A DNA stretch of 64,000 nucleotides from Alphaproteobacteria bacterium (GCA_965214705.1 CBDCCI010000002.1:2336001-2400000), one strand, 5' to 3'; numbered from the stretch's first letter, positions 30,564 through 57,879 are shown. Translations and numbers: made by a program. The notes: generated by a model not told the origin, from the letters alone.

Positions 30564-30726
30564 GCGCCGACGGGCTGCACCGGCGATATCGCGCCCTGCC
30601 CCGGTCGCTGCGCTCCGGGTTTGCGCCGCGCTCGCTCTTTGGCATGATGCGCCCGCAATCTGGCGCGCCGGCGGAGATTAGGCCGCTGGCAGGCGCGCCG
30701 GAGCCGTGTTGAGGGGGCCTGGAACC

Positions 30727-36866: not shown

Positions 36867-37919
36867 TCAGCGGCCGAAGGTCTCGGCGTAGCGCGCGAGC
36901 TTGGCCCGCCAGGCCGCATTATCGAGAATCTCGCGGTTGACGACCGCCGCAGGCGCCTCGCCTCGCATCAAGGCCTTACAGGCGACGATGTCATCGGCGC
37001 CAAGCCCGGCGAAGCACTGGTCTGTCCAGGCCAACGCGTGCGGCGCGAACACCACGTTGTCGAGCTTGAGGATGGGATCGTTCGGGTCCGGCGGCTCCGG
37101 GTCGAGCACGTCGAGGCCGGCGCCGGCGATCCGCCCTTCCTGCAACGCCGCGGTCAACGCCTTCTGGTCCACCGTGCCGCCGCGCGAGGTATTCACGAAA
37201 TAGGCCGTGGGCTTCATCAGGCCGATCAGGCGCTCATCGACGATGTGGTGGGTCTCATCGCTGAGCGGGCAGTTCACGGTCAGGATGTCCGACTCGCGAC
37301 AAACCGTGTCGAGATCGACCATCTGCACGCCAAGCTCTTCGGCCACCGCCGGCTCGGCGTAGGGGTCGCAGGCCATGAAGTTCATGTCGAAAGGCTTGGC
37401 CATGCGGAACATCTCGGCTCCGATGTTGCCGATGCCGACCGAGCCGAGCGTCTTGCCGACGAGACCCACCCCCATGTGGGCGCCCTTGCGGGCGAAGCCC
37501 GGCGGGCCCTCGATGGTCAGCTGGTGCTTGAGCAGGAGCTTGCAGGTGACCGCGAGGATCAGCGCGATGATGGCGACCGCCACCGGCCGGCGCACGCCGT
37601 TGGGCGTGATGACCAGCGCGATGTCGTTGTCGGTGCAGGCGGGCACGTCCACGCTGTCGTAGCCGACGCCGAAGCGCGCGACCATGGCGAGCCGGCCGTC
37701 GCTCGGCACGCTGGAGCGGTCGAAGCGCTGGGCCAGCAGGATCAGCGCGTCGTGACCGGCGAGCTCGGACGCGTCCACCGGCCCCTCGCCGTTCTCCAGA
37801 TAGCGCCACTCGATGTCGGGGTCGTCGTCCAGCGGCGTGCGGTCGAACATGGGGAAGAGCGGCTCGCCCTCCGCCGTGAGAAAATCCCTGCTCAGTGCAA
37901 CCCTAAACTTTTCAGCCAT
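36867..37919 (-). CDS. D-isomer-specific 2-hydroxyacid dehydrogenase (NAD-dependent)
   Basis: RFGVGYDSVD, GIGNIG, NTSRGG, GLDVLDPEPP, APH. Confidence 0.9.
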   Translation of the reverse strand: MAEKFRVALSRDFLTAEGEPLFPMFDRTPLDDDPDIEWRYLENGEGPVDASELAGHDALILLAQRFDRSSVPSDGRLAMVARFGVGYDSVDVPACTDNDIALVITPNGVRRPVAVAIIALILAVTCKLLLKHQLTIEGPPGFARKGAHMGVGLVGKTLGSVGIGNIGAEMFRMAKPFDMNFMACDPYAEPAVAEELGVQMVDLDTVCRESDILTVNCPLSDETHHIVDERLIGLMKPTAYFVNTSRGGTVDQKALTAALQEGRIAGAGLDVLDPEPPDPNDPILKLDNVVFAPHALAWTDQCFAGLGADDIVACKALMRGEAPAAVVNREILDNAAWRAKLARYAETFGR

Positions 37920-37935
37920 AACCCGTTGATCCCCC

Positions 37936-38736
37936 TTATCTCTTCGGCCGCCGCCGGCCGCGCTTGCATTGGGCGCGTAGACCCTCCGCGCCCTCGCGCA
38001 TCGCCTGCTGCAGCAGCCAGACATCGCCCGAATAGCAGATGAAGTCGAAGCCTTCGTTGAATAGCGCCACGCCGACATCGACGTTGGGCACCAGCCGGCC
38101 CAGGGACTTGTTGTTCCTCTTCGCCGCCTGCACCACACGCGCCACCGCCGCGATGAAGTCGGGGTGGTCGAACTGGCCCGCGATGCCCATGGAAACCGAG
38201 AGGTCGAAGTGGCCGATCCAGAGCACGTCAACGTCCTCGATCGCCGCGATGTCGTCGACGTTCTCGATGCCCTCTGCGGTCTCAATCAGGGCGACGAAGG
38301 TGCAGCGCCGGTTGGCGTCGCGCAGCTTCTTCTTCGTGTCCCCCGGCGCGTAGCGGTCGTGGGCGATCTGCAGTGCGACGCCGCGCTCTCCTTCGGGCGC
38401 ATACTTGACGTAGCTCAGCAGCTCCCGCGCCACCTTCGCCGAGCCCACCATCGGCAGCATGATGCCCTCGGCCCCCATGTCCATGGCGCGCGCCGCGTGG
38501 TGGTACTCGCGCGACGGCACGCGCACGATCGCCGGCATGTCGCCTGCCTGCATGTAGCGCAGCATCTGCTTCAGCGTGTCGAAGCCGAAGCCCGAATGCT
38601 CCATGTCGAGCAGCACGTACTCGCAGCCGGCGGCCTTCAGGATCTGGCCGATTCCCGGCGTGCTGAACTCGACCACGAAGGTGCCGACCTTGAGCCGGCC
38701 GTGGCGGGACATCTCCTTGAGGGCGTGTTCTGCCAT
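37936..38736 (-). CDS. HpcH/HpaI aldolase family
   Basis: LDMEHS, VRVP, LIETAEG, IGHFDLS. Confidence 0.9.
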   Translation of the reverse strand: MAEHALKEMSRHGRLKVGTFVVEFSTPGIGQILKAAGCEYVLLDMEHSGFGFDTLKQMLRYMQAGDMPAIVRVPSREYHHAARAMDMGAEGIMLPMVGSAKVARELLSYVKYAPEGERGVALQIAHDRYAPGDTKKKLRDANRRCTFVALIETAEGIENVDDIAAIEDVDVLWIGHFDLSVSMGIAGQFDHPDFIAAVARVVQAAKRNNKSLGRLVPNVDVGVALFNEGFDFICYSGDVWLLQQAMREGAEGLRAQCKRGRRRPKR

Positions 38737-38774
38737 GTCCTTCCCTTTTTCGATCCGTCGAAATGCTCTGTCGG

Positions 38775-40754
38775 CTATGCGCCGATCTGGATGCGCGAGA
38801 CGGCAAACGGCGCCAATTCGACGCGGCCGGGGTCGCCCGGCTGGCCTGGGCTTGCAGCGAAGCCCGCCGGATCGGTCACCGCGTCCACGAAGTTGCTCGC
38901 ATCGAGCCGGCCGATGGTGGCCGTGCCGCCCGTGAGGCCCGAGACCGTCACCGTCTGAAGCGCCGGCGTGAGATTGGCGAGCCAGAGCAGGGTGCCGCCC
39001 CCGTGCTCGTAGGCAAGGCCCAGCAGGCGCGTCGCATCGCTGCTGGTCACCGTGCGGACCGCCGCCCCCTTCGCCTCCGCGAGCGCCGCCACGATGTGAT
39101 AGAGCGGCATCACCGCAGGCCCGTCGAGGTCGTCGAACCAGGGCTGCGGGTGCTCGGTCCTGCGATAGACCATGCCGAGCGCGCCGGAGGGCTGGCCAAG
39201 CGCCAGCGCCTCCAGGCCAAGCGGCGCCACCCGCGCAGCATAGCCGAGGCTGAAGGCCGCGCCGAGCAGGGCGCGGTGGCGCGGGTCCTGGCGATTGAAG
39301 GAGTAGCGCCCGTTGTCGCTGTTCTGGTGGACGTCCGGCCCGTAGGGGTTGAAGCGCATGCCGATGGCACTCGGCGCGATGCGGTAGGGCTTGCCGCCGG
39401 CGAGCGCCTTGGCCGAGGCGACGATATCCGGCAGCGTCTGCAGCGTCTCGATCACCGAGAGGTCGTCCGGCTCGTGCACCACGGCGCAGGTGGCATGGGT
39501 CAGGAAGTCGAACAGATCGGGCGTCGCGCAGTTGCGGTTGAGCTCGGTGAAGTTGGTGAAGACCCCGCCGCCCAGGCGCACGCCGGGGAACGCCGCGCGC
39601 GCCGCACCGTAGACCTCGTCGAAGTCGGGAATGCCGAGAGCCGGGATCTTCTCAAGGGTAAACTTCAGGAGCCGCGCCTGCTCCGGCACGATGGCGTCGG
39701 GCTTGAGCCCGGCACGACCCGCGATCTCGGCAGCCTGTGCCAGCTCGTCGGCCACCGGCCGCTCACAGGGCACCGTGATCTCCAGCACGACCTCGGCATC
39801 GAGGGCCTCGGCCAGTCCCCTGCCGGCGGCCAGCGCGTCTGTCGCGTGAGGGTCACGCGGGTCGCACTCGCAGACGATGTGCCCCGGCCCGAGCGCCTTG
39901 ATCAGGTCGAGCCCGTGGTCGAGATGATCGCGCTCTCGGTTGGCCACGCCGAGCCCGATCTCCGGCATGTGCGTCCCGGTCGCACCGCCGACGGCGATCT
40001 CGATCGCCCCGTCTCCGCCAGCCCCCGTCGCCACCGCCGCCGAGCCCCCCTCGATGCTGAGCGTCGCGACCTGCCGCAGCGTTTCGCCCGCCGCCAGGGT
40101 GTAGGGGAAGGGCAGCGCGAGCGGGCGGTAATAGGTCTTGTAGGAGGCGTCGGTCCAGTTGCGCTGATCCTCGGTCTCCCACGGGTCGGCGCCTTCGAAG
40201 CGGCAGGTGAGCCAGACCCCTGGCGAGACCCGGTGGCGCATGGCGGCAATGTCGTAGAAGGGCTGAAACGGGCTGATCAGGCCGGGGAAGGCAGTCTCCT
40301 CCACCGTGCCGTCGCTGTGGGTGATGGTGCAGGCCTCGCCCGCTACGCCCTCGACCGGATGCAGCACCACGAAGCCCGTGCGGCTGGTCTGGAACTCGGT
40401 CTCGGGCTCGAACTCGACCGTGAAAACCAGGCTCCGCTCGTTCTCCGCCGCGATATCGGCGCGGTAGGTGAGCACGCCATAGGGAGAGTCGATACGCCCG
40501 TCGTAGCTCACGCGAAAGCCGCCGTCTTCTTCTTCGACCTTAAGGTTGGCGATCTGCGGCGCATAGGTCTCCCAGCCGCCGCCGCGCACGACGAAGGCGA
40601 GGCCGCGCAGCGCCTCCACACCGCCGTGGCGAATCCAGCGCAGCTTGCCAGCCTCGAGCGTGGCCGTGAGCGCGCCGGCGGTGATGGTCCGCGCTTCCGG
40701 CGCCTCCTGCTCGGTGCCGTAGAGCGTGAGCGCCTCGCTCGGTGCCGTCGTCAT
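38775..40754 (-). CDS. D-apionate lactonase-like protein
   Basis: LYGTEQ, RTGFVVLHP, WETEDQRNWTDASYKTYYRPL, FTELNR and VHEPDD match the ApnL family as recalled. Confidence 0.75.
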   Translation of the reverse strand: MTTAPSEALTLYGTEQEAPEARTITAGALTATLEAGKLRWIRHGGVEALRGLAFVVRGGGWETYAPQIANLKVEEEDGGFRVSYDGRIDSPYGVLTYRADIAAENERSLVFTVEFEPETEFQTSRTGFVVLHPVEGVAGEACTITHSDGTVEETAFPGLISPFQPFYDIAAMRHRVSPGVWLTCRFEGADPWETEDQRNWTDASYKTYYRPLALPFPYTLAAGETLRQVATLSIEGGSAAVATGAGGDGAIEIAVGGATGTHMPEIGLGVANRERDHLDHGLDLIKALGPGHIVCECDPRDPHATDALAAGRGLAEALDAEVVLEITVPCERPVADELAQAAEIAGRAGLKPDAIVPEQARLLKFTLEKIPALGIPDFDEVYGAARAAFPGVRLGGGVFTNFTELNRNCATPDLFDFLTHATCAVVHEPDDLSVIETLQTLPDIVASAKALAGGKPYRIAPSAIGMRFNPYGPDVHQNSDNGRYSFNRQDPRHRALLGAAFSLGYAARVAPLGLEALALGQPSGALGMVYRRTEHPQPWFDDLDGPAVMPLYHIVAALAEAKGAAVRTVTSSDATRLLGLAYEHGGGTLLWLANLTPALQTVTVSGLTGGTATIGRLDASNFVDAVTDPAGFAASPGQPGDPGRVELAPFAVSRIQIGA

Positions 40755-40817
40755 GTCCCCTTCCTCGCCCCGGTCCGGGCCGTTATAGCAGCGCGCGCAG
40801 CCCGCAACACCCGGTGC

Positions 40818-41828
40818 TCAGGCGCCGACCTCCTCCCACCGGCCGCTCTCGCCCGAGCGCGCGAGCGCATCCAGCGCCCGCATCATCTTGACCGACTCCT
40901 CCAGGGGAAACGCCGGCGGCGCTTCGCCCCGCACCGCCGCGCAGAAGGCCTCCGCCTGCGGCACGTACTGGTTGACCCGTTCCAGGGTCTCGACCTCCTC
41001 GTTGAGCGGCTCCCAGATCTGGCGGGGCCCAAGGATCGAGATGCTGGCCTCGCGGGTCGGCGACTGGGCGAAGGGGTCGGGCAGCTCGATCCGCCCCTCG
41101 GTGCCGTGGATCGCCATGTGCTGATGGACCGCCGACAGGGTGCCGCAGGTAAAGCTCAGGATGCCGCTCGGAAACTCCAGCGTCGCGCTGGCCAGCACGT
41201 CCGTCCCCCATTCCGGGTGCCGCTCGATGGCGGCGAAGGCGCGGATCGGATCGGCCTCGAACACGTAGCGCGCGGTCAACAGCGGATAGACGCCGATGTC
41301 GAGCAGTCCGCCGCCCCCCATCTCCCGCTTGTTGCGGATGTTCTCGGGGTCGTCCAGCCAGTAGCTGACCCAGCCCTGAATCGCCCGCACGGGTCCGATG
41401 CGGCCCGCGCGCACCAGCTCCCGCACCCGCTTCCATTGCGGGTGATGGGTGACGACGTAGGCCTCCTGAATCTGCACGCCGGTCTCGTCGCGGACGGCGA
41501 TGAGCTGCGTCGCCTCGGCCGCGTCGAGCGCGATGGGCTTCTCGCAGAGCACGTGCTTGCCGGCCCGCGCCGCCTTGGCGGTCCAGGGCACGTGGAGGTG
41601 ATTGGGCAGCGGGTTGAAGACCACGTGGATGGCGGGATCGGCCAACATGGACTCGTAATCGCCATACGCCTGCGCCAGGCCGAAGCGCTCGGCCACCGCC
41701 TCTGCCTTGACCAGCTCGCGGCTCGCAATGCCGTGGACGCGGAGGCCGGCAGACTGCTGCAGCGCCGGAATCATGTGCTCGACGGCGAAGAACGAAGCGC
41801 CGAGCACGCCCCAGGAAAGTTCCGTCAT
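40818..41828 (-). CDS. Gfo/Idh/MocA family oxidoreductase
   Basis: PLPNHLH, GKHVLCEKP, GGGGLLDIGVY. Confidence 0.92.
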   Translation of the reverse strand: MTELSWGVLGASFFAVEHMIPALQQSAGLRVHGIASRELVKAEAVAERFGLAQAYGDYESMLADPAIHVVFNPLPNHLHVPWTAKAARAGKHVLCEKPIALDAAEATQLIAVRDETGVQIQEAYVVTHHPQWKRVRELVRAGRIGPVRAIQGWVSYWLDDPENIRNKREMGGGGLLDIGVYPLLTARYVFEADPIRAFAAIERHPEWGTDVLASATLEFPSGILSFTCGTLSAVHQHMAIHGTEGRIELPDPFAQSPTREASISILGPRQIWEPLNEEVETLERVNQYVPQAEAFCAAVRGEAPPAFPLEESVKMMRALDALARSGESGRWEEVGA

Positions 41829-41904
41829 CTCCCTACTCCCCGCCCCGGCAGAGCGCCGCCATCCTGCGGGAAGCCCCCCGCCCGCTCAAGGGACGGGAAG
41901 CGGC

Positions 41905-43029
41905 TCAAGCGGCTACGCGGCACACCGTCTCGTTGCCGCGGCCGGTAATCACGCGGCGCCAACCGGAGAGCGCCTGGTCGAGCGCGGGATCGCCAGTATC
42001 GACGTGCAGCGTGCTGTCATGCAGCGACGCGAGCTTTTCGGGCGTCGCCGCCACCAGCAGTCGGTCGAGACCCACCGCCCGCACCACGCGCGCGCCGATC
42101 TGCTGGTTGCCGCGTCCCAGAAAGTGCCCCTGGCCGCCGATGGGCGTGACCACGATCCCGCCGCCGGGCGGACTCTCCGCCAGCGTGCGCAGGATGGCCT
42201 CCTCGCTCGCGTCGGCACCGATCACCGCCCCGTCGCGCACCAGGTCGACGCCGAGCAGGGTCTTGGACAGTCCGAGCGCGTCGGCGATCGCCCGCGTGGT
42301 GGTGCCGGGCCCCAGAAGGTAGAGCCGCCCGGCCTCCATCCGGCTGGCGATCTCGGCCGCGATCCCGCTCAGCGCTACGCGGTCGCTGCTGACCCCGCCC
42401 GCCTTGACGCTTTGCATTAGATCAGGCGCGTAAGGCACTGGCAAGTAATCGTAAAGCTTCGCCGAGACGGCACCCGCGCGAAACGCTTCTTCGTCGATGT
42501 CCATGACCTCGCGAGGCCGCGCCTCAATGTCCTGGGCGAGCGCCCGGAGCGCGAGGTCGGCGGCGGCGCGGGGGCTGGTGGCGTAAACCGCCGAGTGCAT
42601 CTTCACCCCTGCGGGCACGCCGATCACCGGCACCCGGTCACCTAAGGCCGCCGCCATGTCGCGGGCGGTGCCGTCGCCGCCGGCGAAGACGATGAGCCGG
42701 GCGCCGGCAGCCGCCATGGCCTCGGCTGCGGCCCGCGTGTCCGCCGCGCCGGTCTCACCCTCGGCCGGGGCACCGACGACCGACGGGTTCAGGCCCGCCT
42801 CCCTGGCGATCCCCTCCCCCATCTCGCCGGGGGCGGCGAGCAGCCCCAGCCCTGGTCGCGCCGCGGCGAGCGCCTCCAGCACCACCGCCGCCCGCGTCGC
42901 TGCCTGCGGCCTCGCGCCGCGCGCGCGGGCCTCGCTCAGGATCGCCGCCGTGTCCGTGCCCTTGAGCCCGACGCTGCCGCCCATGCCGGCGATCGGGTTG
43001 ACGATGAGGCCGAGCGTGGGTCGGCCCAT
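41905..43029 (-). CDS. ATP-NAD kinase family (AcoX-like) protein
   Basis: GLIVNPIAGMGG, GGDGTARD, GVKMHSAVY, GRGNQQ, DTGD. Confidence 0.85.
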   Translation of the reverse strand: MGRPTLGLIVNPIAGMGGSVGLKGTDTAAILSEARARGARPQAATRAAVVLEALAAARPGLGLLAAPGEMGEGIAREAGLNPSVVGAPAEGETGAADTRAAAEAMAAAGARLIVFAGGDGTARDMAAALGDRVPVIGVPAGVKMHSAVYATSPRAAADLALRALAQDIEARPREVMDIDEEAFRAGAVSAKLYDYLPVPYAPDLMQSVKAGGVSSDRVALSGIAAEIASRMEAGRLYLLGPGTTTRAIADALGLSKTLLGVDLVRDGAVIGADASEEAILRTLAESPPGGGIVVTPIGGQGHFLGRGNQQIGARVVRAVGLDRLLVAATPEKLASLHDSTLHVDTGDPALDQALSGWRRVITGRGNETVCRVAA

Positions 43030-43039
43030 CAGGCGAGGC

Positions 43040-44638
43040 TCAGCTGTAGCCGCCCCCGTGCCCGCCCAGGCCGCGCTTGACGTTGGCCCAGTTGCCCCGC
43101 TTGCGCCGGTAGGCCCGCGAGGTGAAGGCCCAGCAATCCGGGTCCTCCGGCACGTCGCCGTCGATGGGCCGGATGGCCGCGCTGTGCGGGGCCGCCGTCA
43201 CCTGCTCCGGCGTGTCGCGGGCCTCCTCGGCGATCCGACGCAGCGCGCCGAGCACGTGGTCCATCTCCGCAATCGTGAGCGATTCGCCCGGCTCCAGAGT
43301 GAAGGGCTGCGGCACCAGCATCGGCACGTGGCTCTCCATGTAATGCTGCACGCCGAAATCGACCATGCGGTTCAGCACGTCGTGGCTGGCGACGCCGGTC
43401 TCCTCGTAGAGCGGCTCCCAGCTGTAGCGCACCTGCTCCAGCTTGGGATACGTGTTCTTGGGCCAGGGGACGGTGGTGCCGTCGATCTGCCGGATGTGGT
43501 GCAGCATGTAGTTGTTGTTGAGCACCGCCGTCTCGGCGACCGCGCGCAGGCCCTCGGCGCCCAGGCTGCGAACCCAAGCGTAGGCCTTGAGCACCGCATG
43601 CACGTTGCCGATGAAGGCGCGGATCTTCTCGATCCCCTCCCCCTGCTCGTAATCCAGGCCGTAGCGCTCGCCGTCGTAGGTGACGATGGGGCGCGGCAGG
43701 AACCGCTCCAGATGCGCCTTGACGCCGACCGCGGCGCAGCCCAGGCCGAGCGCGCCATGGGGTGCGGAGAAGGTCTTGTGCAGGTTGAATTGGCACATGT
43801 CGAAGCCGGTGTCGCCCGCGCGCACGACTCCCAGCAGCGGATTGCCGTTGGCCTGGTCGTAGGCGCAGAGCCCGCCGGCCTCGTGCACGATGTCCACGAA
43901 CGCGCGGATGTTGGGGTTGTACTGGCCGGTATCCTCGGGGTTGGTCAGCATCAGGCCGGCGGTCCGCTCGGAGACCGCGGCCTTCAGCGCATCGACCTCG
44001 GCAAAGCCCATCTCGCCCGGCATCAGCGTGATGACCTTGAAGCCCGCCACCGCAGGCGTCGCCGCGTCGGCCGGATGCGAGAAGGCGGTGGTGATGATCT
44101 CGTCCCGCGTGCCGCCTTCGCCCCGCGCGGCGTGATACGCGCGGATCAGGCAGGCGTTGGTGTAGATGCCCTGCGCCCCGCTCGCCGGCTGGAAGGTGAA
44201 GGCATCCATGCCGGCGATCTCGCACATCATGCGGTTGAAGCGGTAGAGGATCTCCAGCGTGCCCTGCAGCGTCTCCGGGTCCTGCAGGGGGTGGACGTCG
44301 GCGAAGCCGGGCAGGCGCGCGACATACTCGTGCACCTTGGGGCTGTATTTCATGGTGCAGGTGCCCATCATGTCGACGGTCACGTCGAAGCCCATGGCCA
44401 TCTGCGAGAGCCGCAGGAAGTGCCGGAGCACCCGGTGCTGCGGCAGCGCGGGCAGCGCCGGCGGTACGGCGCGCCGCACCCCATCCGGCAGCGCCGCGGC
44501 GACGTCGCCGACGGCATCGGCGATGGCGTCGTCCACCGCCGGCGGCAGCAGGCCGCGCCCGCCGTCGCCGGGGATTTCGTCGATCAGGGGCTCGTCCCAG
44601 TGCGCGGCGTGGAAGCCGCCTCCGATGCGGTCTGTCAT
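43040..44638 (-). CDS. gcvPB: Divergent glycine dehydrogenase (decarboxylating) subunit 2 homolog
   Basis: GTCTMKYSPK, HPLQ, TNPEDTG, YDQAN, NLHKTF (PLP lysine). Confidence 0.8.
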   Translation of the reverse strand: MTDRIGGGFHAAHWDEPLIDEIPGDGGRGLLPPAVDDAIADAVGDVAAALPDGVRRAVPPALPALPQHRVLRHFLRLSQMAMGFDVTVDMMGTCTMKYSPKVHEYVARLPGFADVHPLQDPETLQGTLEILYRFNRMMCEIAGMDAFTFQPASGAQGIYTNACLIRAYHAARGEGGTRDEIITTAFSHPADAATPAVAGFKVITLMPGEMGFAEVDALKAAVSERTAGLMLTNPEDTGQYNPNIRAFVDIVHEAGGLCAYDQANGNPLLGVVRAGDTGFDMCQFNLHKTFSAPHGALGLGCAAVGVKAHLERFLPRPIVTYDGERYGLDYEQGEGIEKIRAFIGNVHAVLKAYAWVRSLGAEGLRAVAETAVLNNNYMLHHIRQIDGTTVPWPKNTYPKLEQVRYSWEPLYEETGVASHDVLNRMVDFGVQHYMESHVPMLVPQPFTLEPGESLTIAEMDHVLGALRRIAEEARDTPEQVTAAPHSAAIRPIDGDVPEDPDCWAFTSRAYRRKRGNWANVKRGLGGHGGGYS

Positions 44639-46029
44639 CGGACTGCCTCCCCGAGCGCGGAGACCAGTCTCTCGATTTCGGCCGCCCCGTGCAGCTCGGT
44701 CACGCAATAGAGCGCCGACTGGCCCAGCGCCGGGAACTCGCCGCTCAGGTCCTTGCCGCCGTGAATCTCGGCCTCCAGCAGCGCGGCGTTGACGGCTGCG
44801 ACCGTCTTGCCCGTGCCCGAGAAATCGACCACGAACTCCTTGAAGAACGGCTGGCCCAGGTGGGGCACCGCGACGCCGGGAAGCGCCGCGATCCGCTCCG
44901 CCGCGTAGCAGGCCCGCTGCATGATGCCGCGGCCGAGCTCGGCCATCCCCTCCGGCCCCATCAGCGAGAGGTAGACCGCAGCCCCGATGCCCCAGACCCA
45001 CTGGGTGGTGCCCGCGTAGTCGGTGGCGTCGTGGCGGGTGTCGTAGGAGGTGCGCTCCATAGTCGACCAGGCGAAGCCGAAGCCTTCCCCCTCCGTCGCC
45101 GGCGCGATGCTGAAAAGAATCGAGGGATATTCCGAGACAAAGCGGGATTCGTCCCGGCTCGCGATGAAGCCGCCGTTGCCGCCGCCCGCATACATGTGGA
45201 TGCCGAGGGGCTGCAGATCGCCGATCGCCAGGTCGGTGCCGTAGTCGGCGGGCGCCGCGAGCACGCCAAGCGAGATCGGGTCCACGCCGCCGATAAGCAA
45301 GGCGCCGGCCTCGTGCGCGATATCGGCGATGGCCTGAGCCTGCGTCTCGATCAGGCCGAGGTAGCCGGGGCTCTCCATCACCACGGCCGCGGTCTCGGCC
45401 GAGACCTTGGCGCGGAGGTCGGCGAGATCGATCAGCCCGGTGGCGGGGTCGCGGGCGACGGTCTCGACGGATGCAAAGGGCTTGGCGAAGCCGATGAGCT
45501 GCGAGCGCCGGTCGGCACTCATGGTCTCCGGCACCAGCACGCCGCGCCGGCCGGTGATGCGGCAGGCCATGGTCACGGCGCTGCCGGTGGCGGCGCCGGC
45601 GTCGTAGACGGGGGTCGAGACCACCTCCATGCCCACCAGCTCTCCGATCAGGCTCTGAAACTCGAAAAGCGCCTGGTTCTTGCCGTGGTCCGAGTAGGTG
45701 CCGCCGCCGTAGGCCGTGAGAAACTCGCCGCGATGGACGATCTCGTCCACGATCGCCGGCACGTAGTGCTGGGCGCAGCCGGCACCGCAGAAGTTGAGCC
45801 AGGTTCCGGTGCAGGGCTGGTTGCGGGCGACGATCTCCTCCAGATGCCGCCGCACGTCCTGCTCGCCGGGCAGCGCCGGCGGCAGGTCGAGAAGCCCCTT
45901 GACCCTGAGCGCCTCGGGAATCGCGGCGTAAAGCTCCGCCACGTCGCCCACGCCGATGGCATCCAGCAGCTTGCGCCGCGGCTCCGGCGCCGCATTCGGC
46001 ACATAAGGATGAACGTAACCGTCGCCCAT
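44635..46029 (-). CDS. gcvPA: Divergent glycine dehydrogenase (decarboxylating) subunit 1 homolog
   Basis: HPYVPN, GAGCAQHYVP, RGEFLTAY, QALFEFQS, GDLQPLG, FFKEFVV. Confidence 0.8.
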   Translation of the reverse strand: MGDGYVHPYVPNAAPEPRRKLLDAIGVGDVAELYAAIPEALRVKGLLDLPPALPGEQDVRRHLEEIVARNQPCTGTWLNFCGAGCAQHYVPAIVDEIVHRGEFLTAYGGGTYSDHGKNQALFEFQSLIGELVGMEVVSTPVYDAGAATGSAVTMACRITGRRGVLVPETMSADRRSQLIGFAKPFASVETVARDPATGLIDLADLRAKVSAETAAVVMESPGYLGLIETQAQAIADIAHEAGALLIGGVDPISLGVLAAPADYGTDLAIGDLQPLGIHMYAGGGNGGFIASRDESRFVSEYPSILFSIAPATEGEGFGFAWSTMERTSYDTRHDATDYAGTTQWVWGIGAAVYLSLMGPEGMAELGRGIMQRACYAAERIAALPGVAVPHLGQPFFKEFVVDFSGTGKTVAAVNAALLEAEIHGGKDLSGEFPALGQSALYCVTELHGAAEIERLVSALGEAVR

Positions 46030-46175
46030 GATCGGCCTCCCTGCCCTTCCGGTCCCGGCCAGTCTATCCCGCCACATAGGACGCACCAACGGCGCCCGGC
46101 CGGATCGCCGATCCGCTTTGACTGCCCCGCTTCGCCCGTGCAGTGTTCCCCGCCACAGCGCAGCGGGAGCACGCC

Positions 46176-46901
46176 ATGGCGGTCACCATCAACTGCGACA
46201 TCGGCGAGGGGTACGGCCTTTACACCTTCGGCAACGATGAGCGGATCATGCCGTTCATCAGCATCGCCAATGTCGCGTGCGGCTTTCATGCCTCGGACCC
46301 GTCGGTCATGCACGCGACCGTGCGCCTTGCCCTCGAACACGGGGTCAAGGTCGGCGCGCATCCGTCCCTCCCCGACCGCCAGGGTTTCGGGCGGCGGGAG
46401 ATGCAGATGGAGCGCGACGAGCTGCGCGATCTGCTGATCTACCAGGTCGGCGCGCTCAGCGGCTTCCTTCGGGCGGCGGGCGCCACCCTCAACCACATCA
46501 AGCCCCACGGCGCGCTCTTCGGCATGACGTCCAAGTACGAGCATTGCGCCGAGGCCGCAGCCGATGCGGCGGAAGTCTTCGGGGTGCCGCTGATCGGCCA
46601 GGCCGGCACCATGCACGACACCGTCTACTCCCGGCGCGGCCTGCCCTGGTGGCCCGAGTTCTACGCCGATCTCGAATACGACCGGCACTGCAACCTCATC
46701 ATCACGCGCGAGCACGAGCCCTACGAGCCGGCGGCTGCGGCGAGGCGCACGCTCCGCGCCATCGAGGAGGGCATGGTCACCTCGGTCGAAGGTGTCGACG
46801 TGCCAATCCGGGCGGAGACGGTGTGCATCCATTCCGACACGCCGGGGATCGACGCGGTCGCCCCGGTCCTGCGTGAGGCGCTCGCGCCCCATATGGCGTG
46901 A
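46176..46901 (+). CDS. pxpA: 5-oxoprolinase subunit A / LamB-YcsF family lactam utilisation protein
   Basis: INCDIGEG, NVACGFHA, GAHPSLPD..GFGRR, HIKPHGAL, CIHSDTP. Confidence 0.88.
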   Translation: MAVTINCDIGEGYGLYTFGNDERIMPFISIANVACGFHASDPSVMHATVRLALEHGVKVGAHPSLPDRQGFGRREMQMERDELRDLLIYQVGALSGFLRAAGATLNHIKPHGALFGMTSKYEHCAEAAADAAEVFGVPLIGQAGTMHDTVYSRRGLPWWPEFYADLEYDRHCNLIITREHEPYEPAAAARRTLRAIEEGMVTSVEGVDVPIRAETVCIHSDTPGIDAVAPVLREALAPHMA

Positions 46902-46967
46902 GCCCGCGTCCGCCGCCGGCAATCGGGGGCACGGGCCACGCGGGGGCGGAACGATGGAGGCTTGGTG

Positions 46968-48290
46968 ATGGCGAACTCGAACCTGACGCTCGGCGAGCGT
47001 GACGACGCCGCGATCGCCGGCATTCAGAAGCTCCGCTTCAACCCGCTGGCGGCGCGCGGCGGGCACGGGTCGTACCTCACGGCCGACGACGGCCGCGCCA
47101 TCCTCGACCTCTCGGCTTCTGCGACGGCGGCGAGCCTCGGCTACGGCCATCCCGCCGTGATCGAGGCCGTGACTGAGGCGATGGCCGACATGGCAGGCGC
47201 GAGTCTGCTGATGTATCCGAACGAGTCGGCCGCAGCCCTCGCCGAGGTGCTGCTGGAGACGCTGCCTGGAGACACCGCGCGGCGCGTCTGGTACGGCCAC
47301 TCCGGCTCCGACGCCAACGACGCGGCCTCCCGTGTGCTTGAGGCGGCGACCGGCCGCCACCGCTTCATCTCCTTCATCGGCTCCTATCACGGCGGCGTCG
47401 CGGGCTCGATGAGCATCTCGGGCCACACGGCCATGACCCATACGCTGCCCCGGCCGGGCCTCGTGCTGCTGCCCTACCCCGACCCCTACCGGCCGCGCTT
47501 CAGCGCCGACGACGTGCTCGACATGCTGGATTACCAGTTCGAGACGACGTGCCCTCCTGAACAGGTGGCAGCCGTCTTCATCGAGCCGATCATGTCGGAC
47601 GGCGGCCTGATCGTGCCGCCCGCAGGCTTCCTCAAGGCCCTGGAGGAGCGCTGCCGGCGCCACGGCATCCTCACCGTCCTCGATGAGGTCAAGGTCGGCC
47701 TGGGCCGCTCGGGAGCGCTCCACGCCTTCAGCCACGAGGGGCTGGAGCCCGACATGGTCGTCCTCGGCAAGGGTCTCGGCGGCGGCCTGCCGCTGTCCGC
47801 GCTGATCGGCCCCGCTTCGATCATGGACCACCGCCCGGCCTTCGCGATCCAGACCACGGGCGGCAATCCGGTCTGCACCGCCGCCGGTCTCGCGGTGCTC
47901 CGCACCGTACTCGACGAGGATATTCCGAGCCGTGCGGAGCGCGTGGGCACGGCGCTGGCCGACGGTCTCAGGCGGCTCGCCGAGCGGCATGAGATGATCG
48001 GCGACGTGCGCGGGCGCGGTCTCGCCATCGGAGTCGACTTGGTGGAGAACCGGGAGAGCCGGACGCCCGTCCCCGCGACCACGACGGCCAAGGTGATCGT
48101 CCGCGCCTACGAGCTCGGCGCGAGCTTCATCTACGTCGGGCTGGAGGCGAACGTGTTGGAGATCACCCCGCCGCTCACCCTGAGCGATGCGGAGTGCGAG
48201 GAGGGCCTCGCCATCATCGACAAGGCGCTCGGCGATGTTGCCGCCGGGCTGGTCCCCGACGAAGCCGTCCAGGCCTACATGAACTGGTAA
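46968..48290 (+). CDS. Class III PLP enzyme; alpha-amino-epsilon-caprolactam (amino acid amide) racemase homolog
   Basis: QKLRF, AASLGYGHP, GHSGSDAN, EPIMSDGGLIVPP, DEVKVG and LGKGLGGGLPLSA follow Achromobacter obae ACL racemase, including the diagnostic Asp (SDGG) and Lys (DEVK). Confidence 0.82.
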   Translation: MANSNLTLGERDDAAIAGIQKLRFNPLAARGGHGSYLTADDGRAILDLSASATAASLGYGHPAVIEAVTEAMADMAGASLLMYPNESAAALAEVLLETLPGDTARRVWYGHSGSDANDAASRVLEAATGRHRFISFIGSYHGGVAGSMSISGHTAMTHTLPRPGLVLLPYPDPYRPRFSADDVLDMLDYQFETTCPPEQVAAVFIEPIMSDGGLIVPPAGFLKALEERCRRHGILTVLDEVKVGLGRSGALHAFSHEGLEPDMVVLGKGLGGGLPLSALIGPASIMDHRPAFAIQTTGGNPVCTAAGLAVLRTVLDEDIPSRAERVGTALADGLRRLAERHEMIGDVRGRGLAIGVDLVENRESRTPVPATTTAKVIVRAYELGASFIYVGLEANVLEITPPLTLSDAECEEGLAIIDKALGDVAAGLVPDEAVQAYMNW

Positions 48291-49403: not shown

Positions 49404-50582
49404 CTAACCCGCGCCGTCGATCACCGCGAGCGTCGCCTCGACCCCCGCCCCCACGTCGGCCTTTCCGCCCAGCGACGCGACGGCGCCGCCGAGCGCGGTC
49501 ACGGCCACGGTCGCGAAGACCGGCCGCGCCACCGGCCCCATGTGGCCGATCCGCACCAGCTTGCCCAGCAGCGAGCCGCGGCCGGCGGAGAAGACCACGC
49601 CGTAGAGCCGGCGCGCCGCCTGCCGGATCGCGGCGTCCTCCAGCCCCTCCGGCACCCGCACCGTGGTCGCGGTATCGGCGCAGATGGCCTCGCGCACGGG
49701 CCAGAGGTCGAGACCCATGGCGCGCACGCCCGCGCGGCAGGCGCGCGCCGTCAGCGCGTGCCGCGCCCACACCGCCTCCGGTCCCTCGTCGAGATAGTTC
49801 TGCACCGCCGCGTCCAGCGCATGGACCTCGGAGACCGACGGCGTGTAGGGAAATAGTACATCCGCGCGCCAGGCATCCCGCCAGTCCTTGAGGCTCAGCA
49901 CGGAGTCCGTCGGCGCGGCGGGGTTGGCATCGATCTTCGCCCAGGCGCGCTCGCTGACGTGGACAATGGAAAGCCCAGTGCTGCCGCCGAGGCACTTGTT
50001 GGGGCCGGTCACGAAAATGTCGGCGTGGATGTCCTCGGGGTGAACGTCCATTCCGCCGAAGGAGGAGACTGCGTCCACGATGGTCAGCACGTCGTGATCG
50101 CGGCAGATCGCGCCGATCTCGCGCACGGGATTGACCGTGCCCGACGGCGTGTCGTGATGGCAGACGGAGAGGATTCGAATATCGGGCCGGGCCTTCAACA
50201 TGTCGCTGACCGCGTCCGGATCGATGGCGTCGTCGTAGGGCGCCACGATCTCGACCAGCTCCCGGCAATGGCGCGCGGCCCAGAATCCGAAGCCCTTGCC
50301 GTACTCGCCGGAGGCGAGGTTCAGCACCGCGTCGTCGGCGCCGATCAGGGCGGCAGCGGCGGCTTCGAGCCCGAGCACCGGCTCGCCCATCAGGATCACC
50401 GGCGGCAACGCGGTGCGCAGCGACTCGGCAGTCTTCAGGACCGTCGATTCATAAAAATTCTGGAATGAGGGGTCGAAGTCGTAGGTGACGGGCCGCGACA
50501 GCGCCCGCAGGACGACCGGATACGCGTCGACGGGCCCTGCGCTCAGCGTGATGACCGGGGGATCGTCGTCGACATTTCGCAT
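49404..50582 (-). CDS. ppaT: Pyridoxamine-pyruvate aminotransferase (class V)
   Basis: VITLSAGPV, GEPVLGLEAAAA, YGKGFG.WA, CHHDTPSGT, TGPNKCLG and RIGHMGP are co-linear with Mesorhizobium loti PPAT as recalled. Confidence 0.85.
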   Translation of the reverse strand: MRNVDDDPPVITLSAGPVDAYPVVLRALSRPVTYDFDPSFQNFYESTVLKTAESLRTALPPVILMGEPVLGLEAAAAALIGADDAVLNLASGEYGKGFGFWAARHCRELVEIVAPYDDAIDPDAVSDMLKARPDIRILSVCHHDTPSGTVNPVREIGAICRDHDVLTIVDAVSSFGGMDVHPEDIHADIFVTGPNKCLGGSTGLSIVHVSERAWAKIDANPAAPTDSVLSLKDWRDAWRADVLFPYTPSVSEVHALDAAVQNYLDEGPEAVWARHALTARACRAGVRAMGLDLWPVREAICADTATTVRVPEGLEDAAIRQAARRLYGVVFSAGRGSLLGKLVRIGHMGPVARPVFATVAVTALGGAVASLGGKADVGAGVEATLAVIDGAG

Positions 50583-50827
50583 TTTTGGGGCTGGCTCAAG
50601 GGCTTGGACGAGACCCTAGGATACATCGCCGGATCGCCTTCCCCAAGGCGGTGCATGGTGCAATTATAGGGCCCGAGGCTGGTCCAAATCGCGCTCACGC
50701 ACTCACGACGGCGGCCTATGACAGGTCGATTGACGCCCATGTCCTTTGTAGTACGGTTGTCATGTTGGTCTCGTGAGAATCGCGTCGCGCGACGGGCCGA
50801 ACGGTGACTCGACTGGGAGAGGGAGCC

Positions 50828-52741: not shown

Positions 52742-52746
52742 CGCCC

Positions 52747-54738: not shown

Positions 54739-54761
54739 CAACCCAGACGACCGGGCACGCC

Positions 54762-55544
54762 ATGGCTGACCGGTCCCGCATTGGCATCGTCACGGGCCTC
54801 GTGGCGGAGGCCGCGACCCTGCCCAAGGACGATTTCCGGATCGCGGTCTCGGCGGCCGACCCCGCGCGCGCGGCACAGGCGGCCGGTGCGATGGTCGCGG
54901 GCGGCGTGCGGCTGCTGGTGAGCTACGGCCTCGCCGCCGGGATCGATCCGCGCCTCGGCCCCGGCACTCTGCTTCTGCCTGAGTCGGTGATTGCCCACGA
55001 GGGGGAGGTCGAGGCGCCCGACCGCGGCGGCGTGCGCGACCAGCTCCAGCGGATGACCTCCTTCAGGCGAGAGGAGGGGCGAGGCCCGCCGGAGCCGCCG
55101 CCGGAGGAGGACTACCTGCCGGTGGATGCAACCTTGCGCGAGGTACTTTCCCAGGGTCTCGGGGAACGCGCCGAAGGCGGTGCGCTCGCCGGCGTGGACC
55201 ACCCGTTGACGTACGGCGACCAGAAGCTCTCGCTCTTCGCGCAGACTCGCGCCAGGGCCGCGGACATGGAGAGCCACGTCGTCGCCCGCGCTGCGGCGGC
55301 GGCTGGCGTGCCCTTCGTCGTGATCCGCGTCGTCAGCGACCCGAGCAACCGAGCGCTTCCGCGAGCGGCCATCGTCGGGGTCACCGAGGACGGGCGCATC
55401 AGCGGCGGAGCGGTCGCGGGCGCGCTGCTGCGGCGCCCGTGGGAATGCATGGATATGCTGACGCTCGCGCTCGACGGAGCGCAGGCGATGCGCCGGCTAC
55501 GCCGCGTTGGTCGCCGGTTGGCGCCCCTTCTCGCGAGCCTGTGA
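54762..55544 (+). CDS. hpnG: Hopanoid-associated nucleoside phosphorylase
   Basis: IVTGLVAEA, SYGLAAGIDP, ADMESH, IRVVSD; directly after shc. Confidence 0.85.
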   Translation: MADRSRIGIVTGLVAEAATLPKDDFRIAVSAADPARAAQAAGAMVAGGVRLLVSYGLAAGIDPRLGPGTLLLPESVIAHEGEVEAPDRGGVRDQLQRMTSFRREEGRGPPEPPPEEDYLPVDATLREVLSQGLGERAEGGALAGVDHPLTYGDQKLSLFAQTRARAADMESHVVARAAAAAGVPFVVIRVVSDPSNRALPRAAIVGVTEDGRISGGAVAGALLRRPWECMDMLTLALDGAQAMRRLRRVGRRLAPLLASL

Positions 55545-56669: not shown

Positions 56670-56675
56670 GAGCCC

Positions 56676-57653: not shown

Positions 57654-57879
57654 GCTGCCGTTGTCGCCCACGTTAGGCCCTCGCTTAATCATGGGGGTGC
57701 TCGGGGCGGGACCGTCGACTCCGCACCCAGAGCCACCACTGCACCCTATCGCAGACCTGTGATTCCGACAACACGCAGGTTCCCCGTCCGTTTTCGGCAC
57801 CGGCCTCCCGAAAAGGCGGGCCGCCGGCCTGGGATTTTTGGCAAGAAACACACTTTTTTTGAGTCGGCACGAGCCGGGA

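What the first reader, a model, noticed from the sequence alone, without database searches (positions are those of the whole stretch)
41905..46029. Non-canonical split 'glycine decarboxylase' with a remodelled active site, coupled to an NAD-kinase-family gene
Seen: the PLP lysine motif NLHKTF is kept, but the following loop reads PHGALGLG instead of PHGGGGPG, GSCTMKYN becomes GTCTMKYS, and the subunit-1 segment REQHIRREKATSNICT is replaced by ERTSYDTRHDATDYAGT. No gcvT or gcvH is adjacent; an ATP-NAD kinase/AcoX-like gene follows 10 bp downstream instead. Knowledge: AcoX occurs in the lipoate-dependent acetoin dehydrogenase operon with unclear function. Inference: an uncharacterised PLP (possibly lipoyl-dependent) cleavage system for a substrate other than glycine, sharing a divergent promoter with lactam-processing genes.
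Basis: partly seen in the sequence, partly recalled or inferred. Interest (0 to 1): 0.7.

Follow-up and report, generated by a model that had tools for sequence, protein, structure and literature searches.

The report
Glycine-decarboxylase look-alike with kinase-fold partner
These three genes encode a widespread, unstudied sister of the glycine-cleavage P-protein that travels with, and is predicted to bind, a kinase-like protein; databases label it as ordinary glycine cleavage, which it very probably is not.

Summary
On the minus strand lie a GcvPA-like gene (44635-46029), a GcvPB-like gene (43040-44638, 4-nt overlap) and an AcoX/NAD-kinase-fold gene (41905-43029, 10-nt gap). The same genome has a canonical riboswitch-gcvT-gcvH-gcvP locus on another contig, so this pair is a paralogue.

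The PB-like protein falls in a separate clade (support 100, branch 1.25). That clade replaces canonical active-site and tunnel residues: PHGGGGPG in 0 of 81 against 35 of 35, and the active-site Cys is Gly. A scan of species genomes found 587 relatives of it. It is never next to gcvH or gcvT (0 of 80 loci).

A kinase-fold gene lies nearby in 65 of 80 loci, from bacteria to archaea, often with an SDR and an ArgE/DapE deacylase. A complex prediction supports PB binding to the kinase-fold protein (0.78 against 0.00 in controls).

My best reading is a PLP enzyme for a polar amino compound other than glycine, working with an ATP-using kinase-fold subunit. Substrate and chemistry are inferred, not shown.

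PGAP names these genes GcvPA/GcvPB in cultured Rhodococcus, Sphingomonas and Gemmobacter. The scan noted the same module twice before on other genomes. I found no paper on it.

The parts
44635..46029 (-). GcvPA-like subunit (464 aa) of the variant clade
   Evidence: Pfam GDC-P scores 166.7 bits. NCBIfam GcvPA scores 421.5 against a cut-off of 364. Match to 1wyt_A has E 1.1e-58. Clade-specific changes are G109/P, Y112/E, D114/S, T327/E, S328/Q and G340/C, and the canonical RREKATSNIC segment is lost.
43040..44638 (-). GcvPB-like PLP subunit (532 aa) with the PLP lysine K288 in NLHKTF
   Evidence: NCBIfam GcvPB scores 504.8 against a cut-off of 441. Match to 1wyt_B has E 2e-86. It sits in a separate clade with support 100. 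Sixteen clade-fixed substitutions were found, including D236/T, Q262/G and R404/V. The predicted interface with the kinase-fold protein is at residues 185-221 and 440-441.
41905..43029 (-). AcoX-type NAD-kinase/DAG-kinase-fold protein (374 aa), predicted third subunit
   Evidence: Pfam NAD_kinase scores 75 bits, NAD_kinase_C 50.7 and DAGK_cat 26.5. GGDGT and 50 other columns are invariant in 39 sequences. The AF2 model has pLDDT 89.2. Best structural matches are NADK 7qvs (Z 11.3), DAG kinases (Z 10.2-10.9) and SphK1 (Z 9.4), over about 130 residues of the N-terminal half. A homologue lies in the same locus as PB in 65 of 80 loci. The complex score with PB is 0.78 against 0.00 in controls.
40818..41828 (-). 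GFO/IDH/MocA NAD(P) oxidoreductase, 76 nt downstream; it may stand in for the SDR that follows the module in other lineages
   Evidence: Pfam GFO_IDH_MocA scores 86.5 bits. The nearest NCBIfam model is D-xylose 1-dehydrogenase Gfo6 at 140.6 bits, below its cut-off of 350. The same position holds a GFO gene in L006, L015 and L027, and an SDR in 17 of 66 downstream neighbours scanned.
46030..46142 (.). 113-bp divergent spacer between the PA-like start and the LamB/PxpA-like gene
   Evidence: No sigma-70-like site was found and no Rfam family, glycine riboswitch included.
36867..40754 (-). Lineage-specific downstream context: an ApnL-like lactonase (38775-40754), an HpcH/HpaI aldolase (37936-38736) and a D-2-hydroxyacid dehydrogenase (within 36867-38285)
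   Evidence: NCBIfam ApnL scores 555.7, below its cut-off of 750; the aldolase and dehydrogenase matches are in the same output. These genes are shared only with alphaproteobacterial loci L006, L015 and partly L009 and L011.

Best explanation
The three genes encode a conserved module that is separate from the glycine cleavage system. It has an alpha/beta PLP enzyme descended from the split P-protein, whose substrate pocket and lipoyl-arm tunnel have been rebuilt. It also has an AcoX-type kinase-fold protein that docks on the PLP (beta) subunit. The most likely working (inferred): a polar, probably hydroxylated or charged amino compound other than glycine is taken up, or released by a deacylase. 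The PLP core converts it by decarboxylation or another C-alpha reaction, without handing an aminomethyl group to H-protein. The kinase-fold subunit uses ATP to phosphorylate the substrate or product, or to drive the step. A neighbouring NAD(P) oxidoreductase (an SDR elsewhere, a GFO-type enzyme here) does the adjoining redox step. Shown here: the paralogy, the separate clade, the residue replacements, the gene linkage and a passing complex prediction. Inferred: the substrate class, the ATP use and the reaction type.
For: Paralogy. The own genome has a fused GcvP (617 bits), gcvH, gcvT and a tandem glycine riboswitch on contig 1, and no riboswitch in the window. Four of 5 and 46 of 49 other genomes with the module also hold a canonical-type P-protein, judged by score class.

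Separate clade. The group label needs one change on the tree, with support 100, in 116 rows (FastTree) and in 43 rows (IQ-TREE C20, branch length 1.25).

Remodelling. Sixteen PB and 11 PA positions are conserved at 85% or more in each clade but with different residues. They include the Cys that is C335 in E. coli, whose C335S mutant lost more than sixfold activity (PMC10185560, passages read). They also include the loop holding human Q366, I372, R373 and K376, which a docking study labels the H-interface (PMC7259800, passages read).

Linkage. A kinase-fold gene lies in the same locus in 65 of 80 loci across at least 12 phyla, archaea included. In a sample of Bacillota, 12 of 19 full-length kinase-fold genes lie within 1.5 kb of PA or PB. 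GcvH or GcvT is found in 0 of 80 loci, whereas 26 of the 30 best canonical GcvPB places lie within 5 kb of a GcvH match (coordinates compared by eye). Paradesulfitobacterium has the module and no GcvH match.

Binding. The model supports binding but does not show it. ipSAE was 0.80, 0.78 and 0.78, and the best of 3 controls was 0.00. That mark was reached by 116 of 157 solved complexes and 2 of 215 mismatched pairs. The runs agree in at least 54% of contacts and the partner's pLDDT is at least 80. Interface residues T204, L205, P207 and A217 are 90-96% conserved in the clade and variable in canonical proteins.

Kinase competence. GGDGT is invariant.

Context. Neighbours include an ArgE/DapE deacylase (12 of 61 upstream neighbours), an SDR (37 of 80 loci), APC permeases, acyl-CoA synthetases and LysR, TetR or sigma-54 regulators.
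Against: Both subunits pass NCBIfam's GcvPA and GcvPB equivalog cut-offs. The PLP lysine and the core fold are kept, so glycine activity is not excluded. A GcvH exists somewhere in 54 of the 55 other genomes checked and in the window's own genome, so a lipoyl acceptor is available.

The kinase-fold protein is not universal. Seven loci with ample flank lack it, and in 4 of those genomes no copy was found at all. The PB interface strand is unchanged in them.

Close relatives of the kinase-fold protein (44-48% identity) stand alone in Aeromonas and Pseudoalteromonas, away from any variant P-protein. Its job may therefore be general rather than tied to this enzyme.

No substrate, ATP use or reaction has been measured. 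The complex score is a model's confidence, was obtained with my own alignments, and covers only the PB chain without PA.
Confidence: 0.6

Rival explanations
1. It is a second, differently regulated glycine decarboxylase that still uses the cell's single GcvH, GcvT and L-protein. The kinase-fold gene would then be an unrelated or regulatory neighbour.
For: It passes the GcvPA and GcvPB equivalog cut-offs. The PLP lysine, H188, D261 and many core residues are shared with canonical proteins. GcvH is present in 54 of the 55 other genomes checked and in the window's own genome.
Against: The clade is separated by a long branch. Canonical-invariant residues of the pocket and tunnel are replaced, the active-site Cys among them. 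It is never linked to gcvH or gcvT (0 of 80). No glycine riboswitch is present here although the canonical locus has two aptamers. One genome has the module and no GcvH match. The context is catabolic and plasmid-borne, with permeases and deacylases.
Confidence: 0.1
2. Kinase-then-PLP logic on a hydroxylated amino acid. The kinase-fold subunit phosphorylates a hydroxyl group of a polyol or sugar-acid-like amino acid. The P-like enzyme then eliminates or decarboxylates the phospho-ester. Recalled analogues are PduX with CobD, hydroxylysine kinase with its phospho-lyase, and glucosaminate-6-phosphate ammonia-lyase. This is a sharper form of the best explanation.
For: All solved relatives of the N-domain are hydroxyl kinases: NADK, DAG kinase, SphK1 and YegS. 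The C-terminal half, folded alone (pLDDT 90.7), weakly resembles phosphosugar-binding folds: eIF2B Z 7.4 with 138 residues aligned at rmsd 4.5, then RpiA, DeoR/SorC, 6PGL and NagB at Z 4.5-6.2. In Peptoclostridium the kinase-fold gene overlaps a HisC/CobD-family PLP gene, a family whose named members (histidinol-phosphate transaminase, threonine-phosphate decarboxylase) act on phosphorylated substrates. The clade gains polar and charged pocket residues: R404, D236, Q262, N161, T184 and S187. In the window a sugar-type dehydrogenase, a lactonase and a 2-keto-3-deoxy-acid-type aldolase follow.
Against: The C-domain matches have Z below 8, the tool's own bar for chance. The HisC/CobD pairing was seen once and in 0 of 24 Bacillota loci. 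The window's sugar-acid genes are shared only with a few alphaproteobacteria. The position of R404 and the other residues in three dimensions was not determined. Some genomes have PA and PB without the kinase-fold gene.
Confidence: 0.25
3. A biosynthetic role (an amino-alcohol phosphate, a cofactor linker or a lipid head group) rather than catabolism.
For: There is an analogy to the CobD pathway (recalled). Stand-alone kinase-fold homologues sit in housekeeping-like surroundings in gammaproteobacteria.
Against: Neighbours are permeases, ABC importers, deacylases, acyl-CoA synthetases and substrate-type regulators. The module sits on catabolic plasmids and has a patchy, transfer-like distribution.
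Confidence: 0.08
4. A decaying or non-catalytic paralogue.
For: One sampled genome holds a copy with many stops (G165), and one locus has only a fragment of the kinase-fold gene.
Against: Frames are intact in the window and in 80 loci. The PLP lysine is kept, and 146 columns of the 23-sequence PB-like alignment are invariant. Identity is 50-98% across phyla.
Confidence: 0.02

Closest known systems
Two-subunit glycine cleavage P-protein GcvPA/GcvPB (EC 1.4.4.2; Thermus thermophilus 1WYT)
   Same: The split alpha/beta architecture, the fold-type I PLP fold, the NLHKTF lysine motif and many core residues are shared. Matches are E 2e-86 to 1wyt_B and 1.1e-58 to 1wyt_A. It passes NCBIfam's equivalog cut-offs.
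   Different: Identity to canonical proteins of the same genomes is only 30-40% (PB) and 24-40% (PA). It forms a separate clade. The glycine-rich loop, the TPYQPE segment, the RREKATSNIC tunnel loop and the active-site Cys are replaced. There is no gcvH or gcvT linkage and no glycine riboswitch. It has a conserved C-terminal tail (W503, A504, T506, K513) and a kinase-fold partner.
AcoX of acetoin dehydrogenase operons (acoXABC)
   Same: Both are NAD-kinase-family proteins of similar size encoded beside an alpha/beta enzyme that cleaves a C-C bond, often with an SDR in the operon. AcoX is annotated as ATP-NAD kinase (PMC6722718, passages read) and its function was still called unknown in 2022 (PMC10107126, passages read).
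   Different: The partner here is a PLP enzyme, not a thiamine-dependent E1, and there is no E2 or lipoyl gene. No AcoX reference sequence was at hand, so the degree of kinship was not measured.
NAD kinase / diacylglycerol kinase / sphingosine kinase superfamily
   Same: The N-terminal Rossmann-like domain has an invariant GGDGT motif. Matches are 7qvs Z 11.3 (rmsd 3.2, 138 aligned), 2qvl Z 10.9 and 4l02 Z 9.4. The Pfam NAD_kinase N and C models are passed.
   Different: Only about 130 of 374 residues superpose, and Foldseek TM is 0.25. The C-terminal half is alpha/beta and weakly RpiA/eIF2B-like, not the beta-sandwich that I recall for NAD kinases. No NCBIfam NAD kinase model matched.
Kinase plus PLP-enzyme pairs that act on phospho-esters (PduX with CobD threonine-phosphate decarboxylase; hydroxylysine kinase with its phospho-lyase) - recalled, functional analogy only
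   Same: An ATP-dependent hydroxyl kinase is encoded with a fold-type I PLP enzyme. One kinase-fold homologue overlaps a HisC/CobD-family gene.
   Different: The protein families differ on both sides. No activity is known for this module. A predicted stable complex is, as far as I recall, not a feature of those pairs.

Membership tests
GcvPA/GcvPB, aminomethyl-transferring glycine dehydrogenase (EC 1.4.4.2) | Profile score above the curated equivalog cut-off | tested here: met
   PA scores 421.5 against 364 and PB scores 504.8 against 441. Variant-clade PBs score 497-614 bits, canonical split ones 680-785, so the cut-off does not separate the two.
GcvPA/GcvPB, aminomethyl-transferring glycine dehydrogenase (EC 1.4.4.2) | PLP-lysine motif and fold-type I core | tested here: met
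   NLHKTF with K288 is present, and H188, D261 and H294 are shared with canonical proteins.
GcvPA/GcvPB, aminomethyl-transferring glycine dehydrogenase (EC 1.4.4.2) | Canonical active-site and tunnel residues (PHGGGGPG loop, TPYQPE, RREKATSNIC with the active-site Cys) | tested here: not met
   GGGGPG is in 0 of 81 clade members against 35 of 35 canonical proteins. C340 is Gly in 100% of the clade, and E327, Q328, N338 and S337 are replaced.
GcvPA/GcvPB, aminomethyl-transferring glycine dehydrogenase (EC 1.4.4.2) | Branches within the clade of P-proteins that sit in gcv operons | tested here: not met
   It lies on one side of a branch with support 100 in both trees. The root was not inferred.
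GcvPA/GcvPB, aminomethyl-transferring glycine dehydrogenase (EC 1.4.4.2) | Genomic linkage to gcvH/gcvT and glycine-responsive control | tested here: not met
   0 of 80 loci hold GcvH or GcvT, whereas 26 of the 30 best canonical places lie within 5 kb of GcvH. The riboswitch is found only at the canonical locus.
GcvPA/GcvPB, aminomethyl-transferring glycine dehydrogenase (EC 1.4.4.2) | H-protein-dependent glycine decarboxylation / glycine-CO2 exchange | not testable with these tools
   This needs an enzyme assay.
NAD kinase (EC 2.7.1.23) | Pfam NAD_kinase N- and C-domain matches and the GGDGT motif | tested here: met
   Scores are 75 and 50.7 bits against cut-offs of 25.5 and 23.7. GGDGT is invariant in 39 sequences.
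NAD kinase (EC 2.7.1.23) | Whole-length structural likeness to solved NAD kinases | tested here: inconclusive
   Z is 11.3 over 138 of 374 residues, tied with DAG kinases. The C-terminal half gives other, weak matches.
NAD kinase (EC 2.7.1.23) | Phosphorylation of NAD(H) | not testable with these tools
   This needs an enzyme assay.
AcoX (acetoin operon protein X) | Encoded beside acoA/acoB/acoC | tested here: not met
   The neighbours are PA-like and PB-like genes. The genome holds only this one copy of the kinase-fold gene.
AcoX (acetoin operon protein X) | Close sequence kinship to a characterised aco-operon AcoX | not tested
   No AcoX reference sequence was available through the tools.

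The most novel reading that the evidence does not exclude
The AcoX-type kinase-fold protein is a true third subunit of a GcvP-derived PLP enzyme. It phosphorylates a hydroxylated, amino-aldonate-like or hydroxy-amino-acid substrate and passes it directly to the PLP site. There, loss of CO2 or of the alpha-proton is coupled to loss of phosphate. This would be an ATP-driven amino-acid cleavage of a kind not described, spread by gene transfer from Bathyarchaeia to Actinomycetota. It would also give the first function for the AcoX family.
Probability: 0.2. Interest if true: 0.85.

Novelty: new variant of a known kind. Interest (0 to 1): 0.7.

Why it matters
A scan of one genome per species found 587 relatives of the variant PB-like protein. 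In the annotated records read here its genes are labelled 'GcvPA/GcvPB, glycine catabolic process'. Metabolic reconstructions therefore count a glycine cleavage step that is probably something else, and they miss an unknown catabolic route. The module offers a defined, testable partner for the AcoX family, whose function was still described as unknown in 2022. It occurs on plasmids of cultivable, tractable hosts (Rhodococcus jostii RHA1, R. qingshengii, Sphingomonas psychrotolerans, Gemmobacter fulvus), so genetics and biochemistry are within reach. If the predicted complex is real, it is an unusual pairing of a kinase-fold protein with a PLP enzyme.

Tried and rejected
Literature. Six searches found no paper on this module (for AcoX). 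The two structural papers on P-protein (Nakai 2005, Hasse 2013) are not held. Residue roles therefore rest on passages of PMC7259800, PMC4767401 and PMC10185560.

Fusion check. An apparent PB-kinase fusion in Kitasatospora L067 was an out-of-frame reading, not a fusion.

Interface co-variation. PBs from genomes without the kinase-fold gene keep the same interface strand, so this gave no signal either way.

HisC/CobD pairing. It was sought in 24 Bacillota loci and found in none.

Structure searches. Foldseek on the kinase-fold model gave nothing at E <= 0.001. The ESM Atlas returned only 'ATP-NAD kinase family' clusters. The C-domain search gave only Z below 8.

Promoter scan. No sigma-70-like site was found.

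Expression. Three RNA-library runs hold contigs 90-95% like parts of PA and PB (X19: 693 nt over 43599-44291; X20: 344 nt over 45691-46034). Contigs cannot show transcription, and the sequences are from relatives, not this strain.

Complex. Only PB with the kinase-fold protein was folded.

Residue positions. The place of R404 and the other clade-specific residues in three dimensions could not be read, because models are not returned as coordinates.

Full report
WHAT IS THERE. On the minus strand three ORFs are packed head to tail. The first is a GcvPA-like gene (44635-46029, 464 aa). The second is a GcvPB-like gene (43040-44638, 532 aa), whose ATG overlaps the PA stop as ATGA. The third is a 374-aa NAD-kinase-fold gene (41905-43029) that starts 10 nt after the PB stop. 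Pfam finds GDC-P in PA (166.7 bits). In PB it finds GcvP2_C and Aminotran_5. In the third protein it finds both NAD_kinase domains plus DAGK_cat. NCBIfam's equivalog models for GcvPA and GcvPB are passed (421.5 against 364; 504.8 against 441), so an automatic pipeline would name these genes glycine dehydrogenase subunits. That is what PGAP did for the same module on plasmids of Rhodococcus qingshengii, Sphingomonas psychrotolerans, Gemmobacter fulvus and Antarctobacter.

In alignments to Thermus 1WYT, PB has GTCTMKYS and PHGALGLG where the solved enzyme has GSCTMKYN and PHGGGGPG. PA has MERTSYDTRHDATDYAGT where the solved enzyme has REQYIRRAKAKSNITT. The genome's own canonical GcvP carries REQHIRREKATSNICT, PHGGGGPG, GSCTMKLN and TAYTPYQPEISQG.

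IT IS A PARALOGUE, NOT THE CELL'S P-PROTEIN. The assembly (7.9 Mb, 3 contigs) has a fused GcvP on contig 1 (617 bits to GDC-P). Beside it lie gcvH and gcvT, preceded by two glycine-riboswitch aptamers (64.2 and 41.8 bits). The window has no Rfam match at all. The same holds elsewhere. Of 5 genomes with the module, 4 also have a canonical P-protein and GcvH. Of 49 more, 46 have at least one further match of canonical type, judged by score class; the 3 single-match genomes are assemblies of 1.1-1.6 Mb. Scores to the GcvPB model fall into classes: 680-785 bits for canonical split proteins, 446-468 for fused ones and 497-614 for the variant.

A SEPARATE, WIDESPREAD CLADE. A database search with the PB-like protein scored 8000 candidates. 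The best 120 (54-97% identical) all carry the variant loop, none has GGGGPG, and 101 of 120 have GTCTMKYS. Where named, they are called GcvPB. Of these, 587 encode a relative, and the best 80 loci were kept. They come from Alphaproteobacteria, Chloroflexota, Acidobacteriota, Bacillota, Actinomycetota, Planctomycetota, Spirochaetota, Thermotogota, Lentisphaerota, Bathyarchaeia, Thermoplasmata and others. In a tree of 81 variant and 35 canonical PB sequences the two labels need one change (support 100, FastTree). A subset of 25 plus 18 under LG+C20 gave the same split, with a branch of 1.25 changes per site. I chose the subset by hand for taxonomic spread, and the other 73 rows were left out for run time. 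Inside the clade the order does not follow taxonomy: Bathyarchaeia group with Chloroflexia and Kitasatospora. This points to frequent transfer. The root was not inferred.

THE ACTIVE SITE AND TUNNEL ARE REBUILT. Sixteen PB positions and 11 PA positions are conserved at 85% or more in each clade but with different residues. In PB these are T93/S, S99/N, N161/G, T184/P, S187/A, P189/G, D236/T, T237/L, Q262/G (next to the conserved D261), A274/P, W355/Y, N375/A, Q402/E, R404/V, P445/A and T447/M. In PA the canonical TPYQPE becomes GGGTY-D, E327 and Q328 become T and S, and the invariant Cys of SNICT is Gly in every clade member. That Cys is C335 of E. coli P-protein, called an active-site residue whose C335S mutant lost more than sixfold activity (PMC10185560, passages read). 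The same loop holds human Q366, I372, R373 and K376, labelled H-protein interface in a docking study (PMC7259800, passages read), and residues said to be mobile on PLP binding and to line the lipoamide channel (PMC4767401, passages read). The new residues are mostly polar or charged. That fits a larger, polar substrate, but their positions in three dimensions were not determined here.

NO LINK TO THE LIPOYL RELAY. With the genome's own GcvH and GcvT as queries, tblastn finds nothing in any of the 80 loci, each up to 10 kb either side. By contrast, 26 of the 30 best canonical GcvPB places lie within 5 kb of a GcvH match on the same contig (coordinates, compared by eye). Paradesulfitobacterium ferrireducens has the module and no GcvH match. 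Against this, 50 of 50 further genomes do have a GcvH somewhere, so use of H-protein is not excluded.

THE KINASE-FOLD PARTNER. A homologue lies in the same locus as PB in 65 of 80 loci. The gene orders are PA-PB-K in 55, K-PA-PB in 6, PB-K with PA cut off in 4, and none in 15. Of the 15 without it, 5 end at a contig edge just after PB and 2 have 2.1 kb of flank or less. Of the remaining 8 I checked the 7 genomes recorded: 3 hold the gene elsewhere and 4 show none. The gene is therefore very common but not obligatory. In a sample of 301 Bacillota genomes, 19 have it, and 12 of 19 full-length copies lie within 1.5 kb of PA or PB. The protein is highly conserved, with 52 invariant columns in 39 sequences, GGDGT among them. 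Its model (pLDDT 89.2) matches NAD kinase 7qvs (Z 11.3, rmsd 3.2, 138 aligned), DAG kinases (Z 10.2-10.9), sphingosine kinase 1 (Z 9.4) and YegS (Z 9.0), but only over the N-terminal half. Foldseek gives TM 0.25. The C-terminal half folded alone (pLDDT 90.7) gives only weak matches (best Z 7.4). These nevertheless come mostly from one group: eIF2B, ribose-phosphate isomerases, DeoR/SorC effector domains, 6-phosphogluconolactonase and NagB. This is a lead, not a finding. Relatives 44-48% identical stand alone in Aeromonas and Pseudoalteromonas. In Peptoclostridium acidaminophilum one overlaps a HisC/CobD-family PLP gene. AcoX, the family's namesake, was still described as of unknown function in 2022 (PMC10107126, passages read).

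PREDICTED COMPLEX. PB (alignment of 23 rows) and the kinase-fold protein (39 rows) were folded together. The tool's verdict is that the model supports binding but does not show it. ipSAE was 0.80, 0.78 and 0.78, and the best of 3 controls was 0.00. That mark was reached by 116 of 157 solved complexes and 2 of 215 mismatched pairs, counts that hold only roughly because my own alignments were used. The runs agree in at least 54% of contacts and the partner's pLDDT is at least 80. The contact is strand-to-strand. PB 201-209 (KVITLMPGE), together with 185, 192, 196, 216-221 and 440-441, meets the C-terminal strands of the partner (330-339, 356-371). PB residues T204, L205, P207 and A217 are 90-96% conserved in the variant clade and variable in canonical proteins. 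I know of no solved complex of these two families, so a pass from memory is unlikely. PA was not in the job.

NEIGHBOURS. One cluster of short-chain dehydrogenases occurs in 37 of 80 loci. It is the gene directly downstream in 17 of 66 neighbours scanned and directly upstream in 4 of 61. An ArgE/DapE-family deacylase is directly upstream in 12 of 61. Other recurrent neighbours are ABC or peptide-type importers, APC permeases, acyl-CoA synthetases, MttB-family methyltransferases, enolase-superfamily racemase or dehydratase genes, iron and zinc alcohol dehydrogenases, LLM oxidoreductases, class III aminotransferases, and LysR, TetR, GntR or sigma-54 regulators. This is the look of a catabolic module for an amino compound that plugs into varied pathways.

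THE WINDOW'S OWN CONTEXT. The downstream genes are a GFO/IDH/MocA dehydrogenase, an ApnL-like lactonase, an HpcH-type aldolase, a 2-hydroxyacid dehydrogenase, two acyl-CoA dehydrogenases, an enoyl-CoA hydratase and a threonine-dehydratase-like gene. Across the divergent spacer lie a LamB/PxpA gene, a class III aminotransferase and an LLM oxidoreductase. This arrangement is shared in full only with the 98%-identical L015 and, downstream, with L006. It is local colour and not part of the conserved system.

VERDICT. The finding is real and is more than a divergent annotation. It is a distinct, ancient and mobile sister lineage of the split P-protein, with its own conserved partner. What it does remains inferred. 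I put 0.6 on a non-glycine PLP enzyme working with an ATP-using kinase-fold subunit outside the glycine cleavage system. Within that, about 0.25 goes to the specific kinase-then-PLP route on a hydroxylated amino acid. I put 0.1 on a second true glycine decarboxylase.

EARLIER NOTES AND A CAVEAT. The scan noted the same module twice before on other genomes (e1-4265769, e1-4570785). My trees, residue tables and linkage counts were made independently and agree with those notes. The complex prediction, the cultivable hosts and the genomes lacking the kinase-fold gene may or may not be in them, because I saw only their summaries. One genome flagged as unpublished (G036, the genome of locus L057) contributes a single row to the tallies and tree.

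Noticed in passing
window 49404-50582 (-): A class V aminotransferase reaches NCBIfam's equivalog cut-off for pyridoxamine-pyruvate transaminase (606.4 against 600). This is a vitamin B6 degradation enzyme, and it lies 3.4 kb from the PLP-enzyme module.
   Followed up: no
window 38775-40754 (-): A 659-aa ORF has no Pfam match but scores 555.7 bits to the D-apionate lactonase ApnL model (cut-off 750). It is conserved in L006, L009 and L015.
   Followed up: partly
window 19419-20195 (-): A GCV_T-domain match lies inside a 784-aa frame. It is one of 13 GCV_T matches in the genome, which suggests many demethylase-type, folate-dependent enzymes.
   Followed up: no
window 50804-57851: A hopanoid/isoprenoid cluster: DXP synthase, squalene-hopene cyclase, a PNP_UDP_1 protein, a radical SAM protein with DUF3463, and LytB/IspH.
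   Followed up: no
window 57880-58425 (-) and 30706-31290 (+): A phage Mu Gp27-like ORF and an HNH endonuclease ORF, possibly remnants of mobile elements.
   Followed up: no
L131 8998-11074 (Peptoclostridium acidaminophilum plasmid): A kinase-fold homologue (42% identity) overlaps by 8 nt a HisC/CobD-family PLP gene instead of a P-like pair. This pairing was not seen in 24 Bacillota loci.
   Followed up: partly
L159/L164 (G165) and L168 (G042): Decayed copies. In G165 the kinase-fold match is broken into pieces, one of them carrying 7 in-frame stops, beside PB-like pieces. In G042 only a 54-residue fragment of the kinase-fold gene lies next to the PB-like gene of L069.
   Followed up: no
window 40800-47000: Contigs from three RNA libraries of three studies (labelled sponge, coral and marine metagenome) match parts of PA and PB at 90-95% identity. 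DNA runs labelled sponge metagenome hold about a fifth of the sampled words. This is a weak hint that relatives are expressed; transcription is not shown.
   Followed up: partly
L134 (Natronosalvus halobius plasmid): In this haloarchaeon the kinase-fold gene sits among class III aminotransferase, ornithine cyclodeaminase-family, DHDPS-family and SDR genes. A variant-type PB-like match lies 55 kb away on the same plasmid.
   Followed up: no
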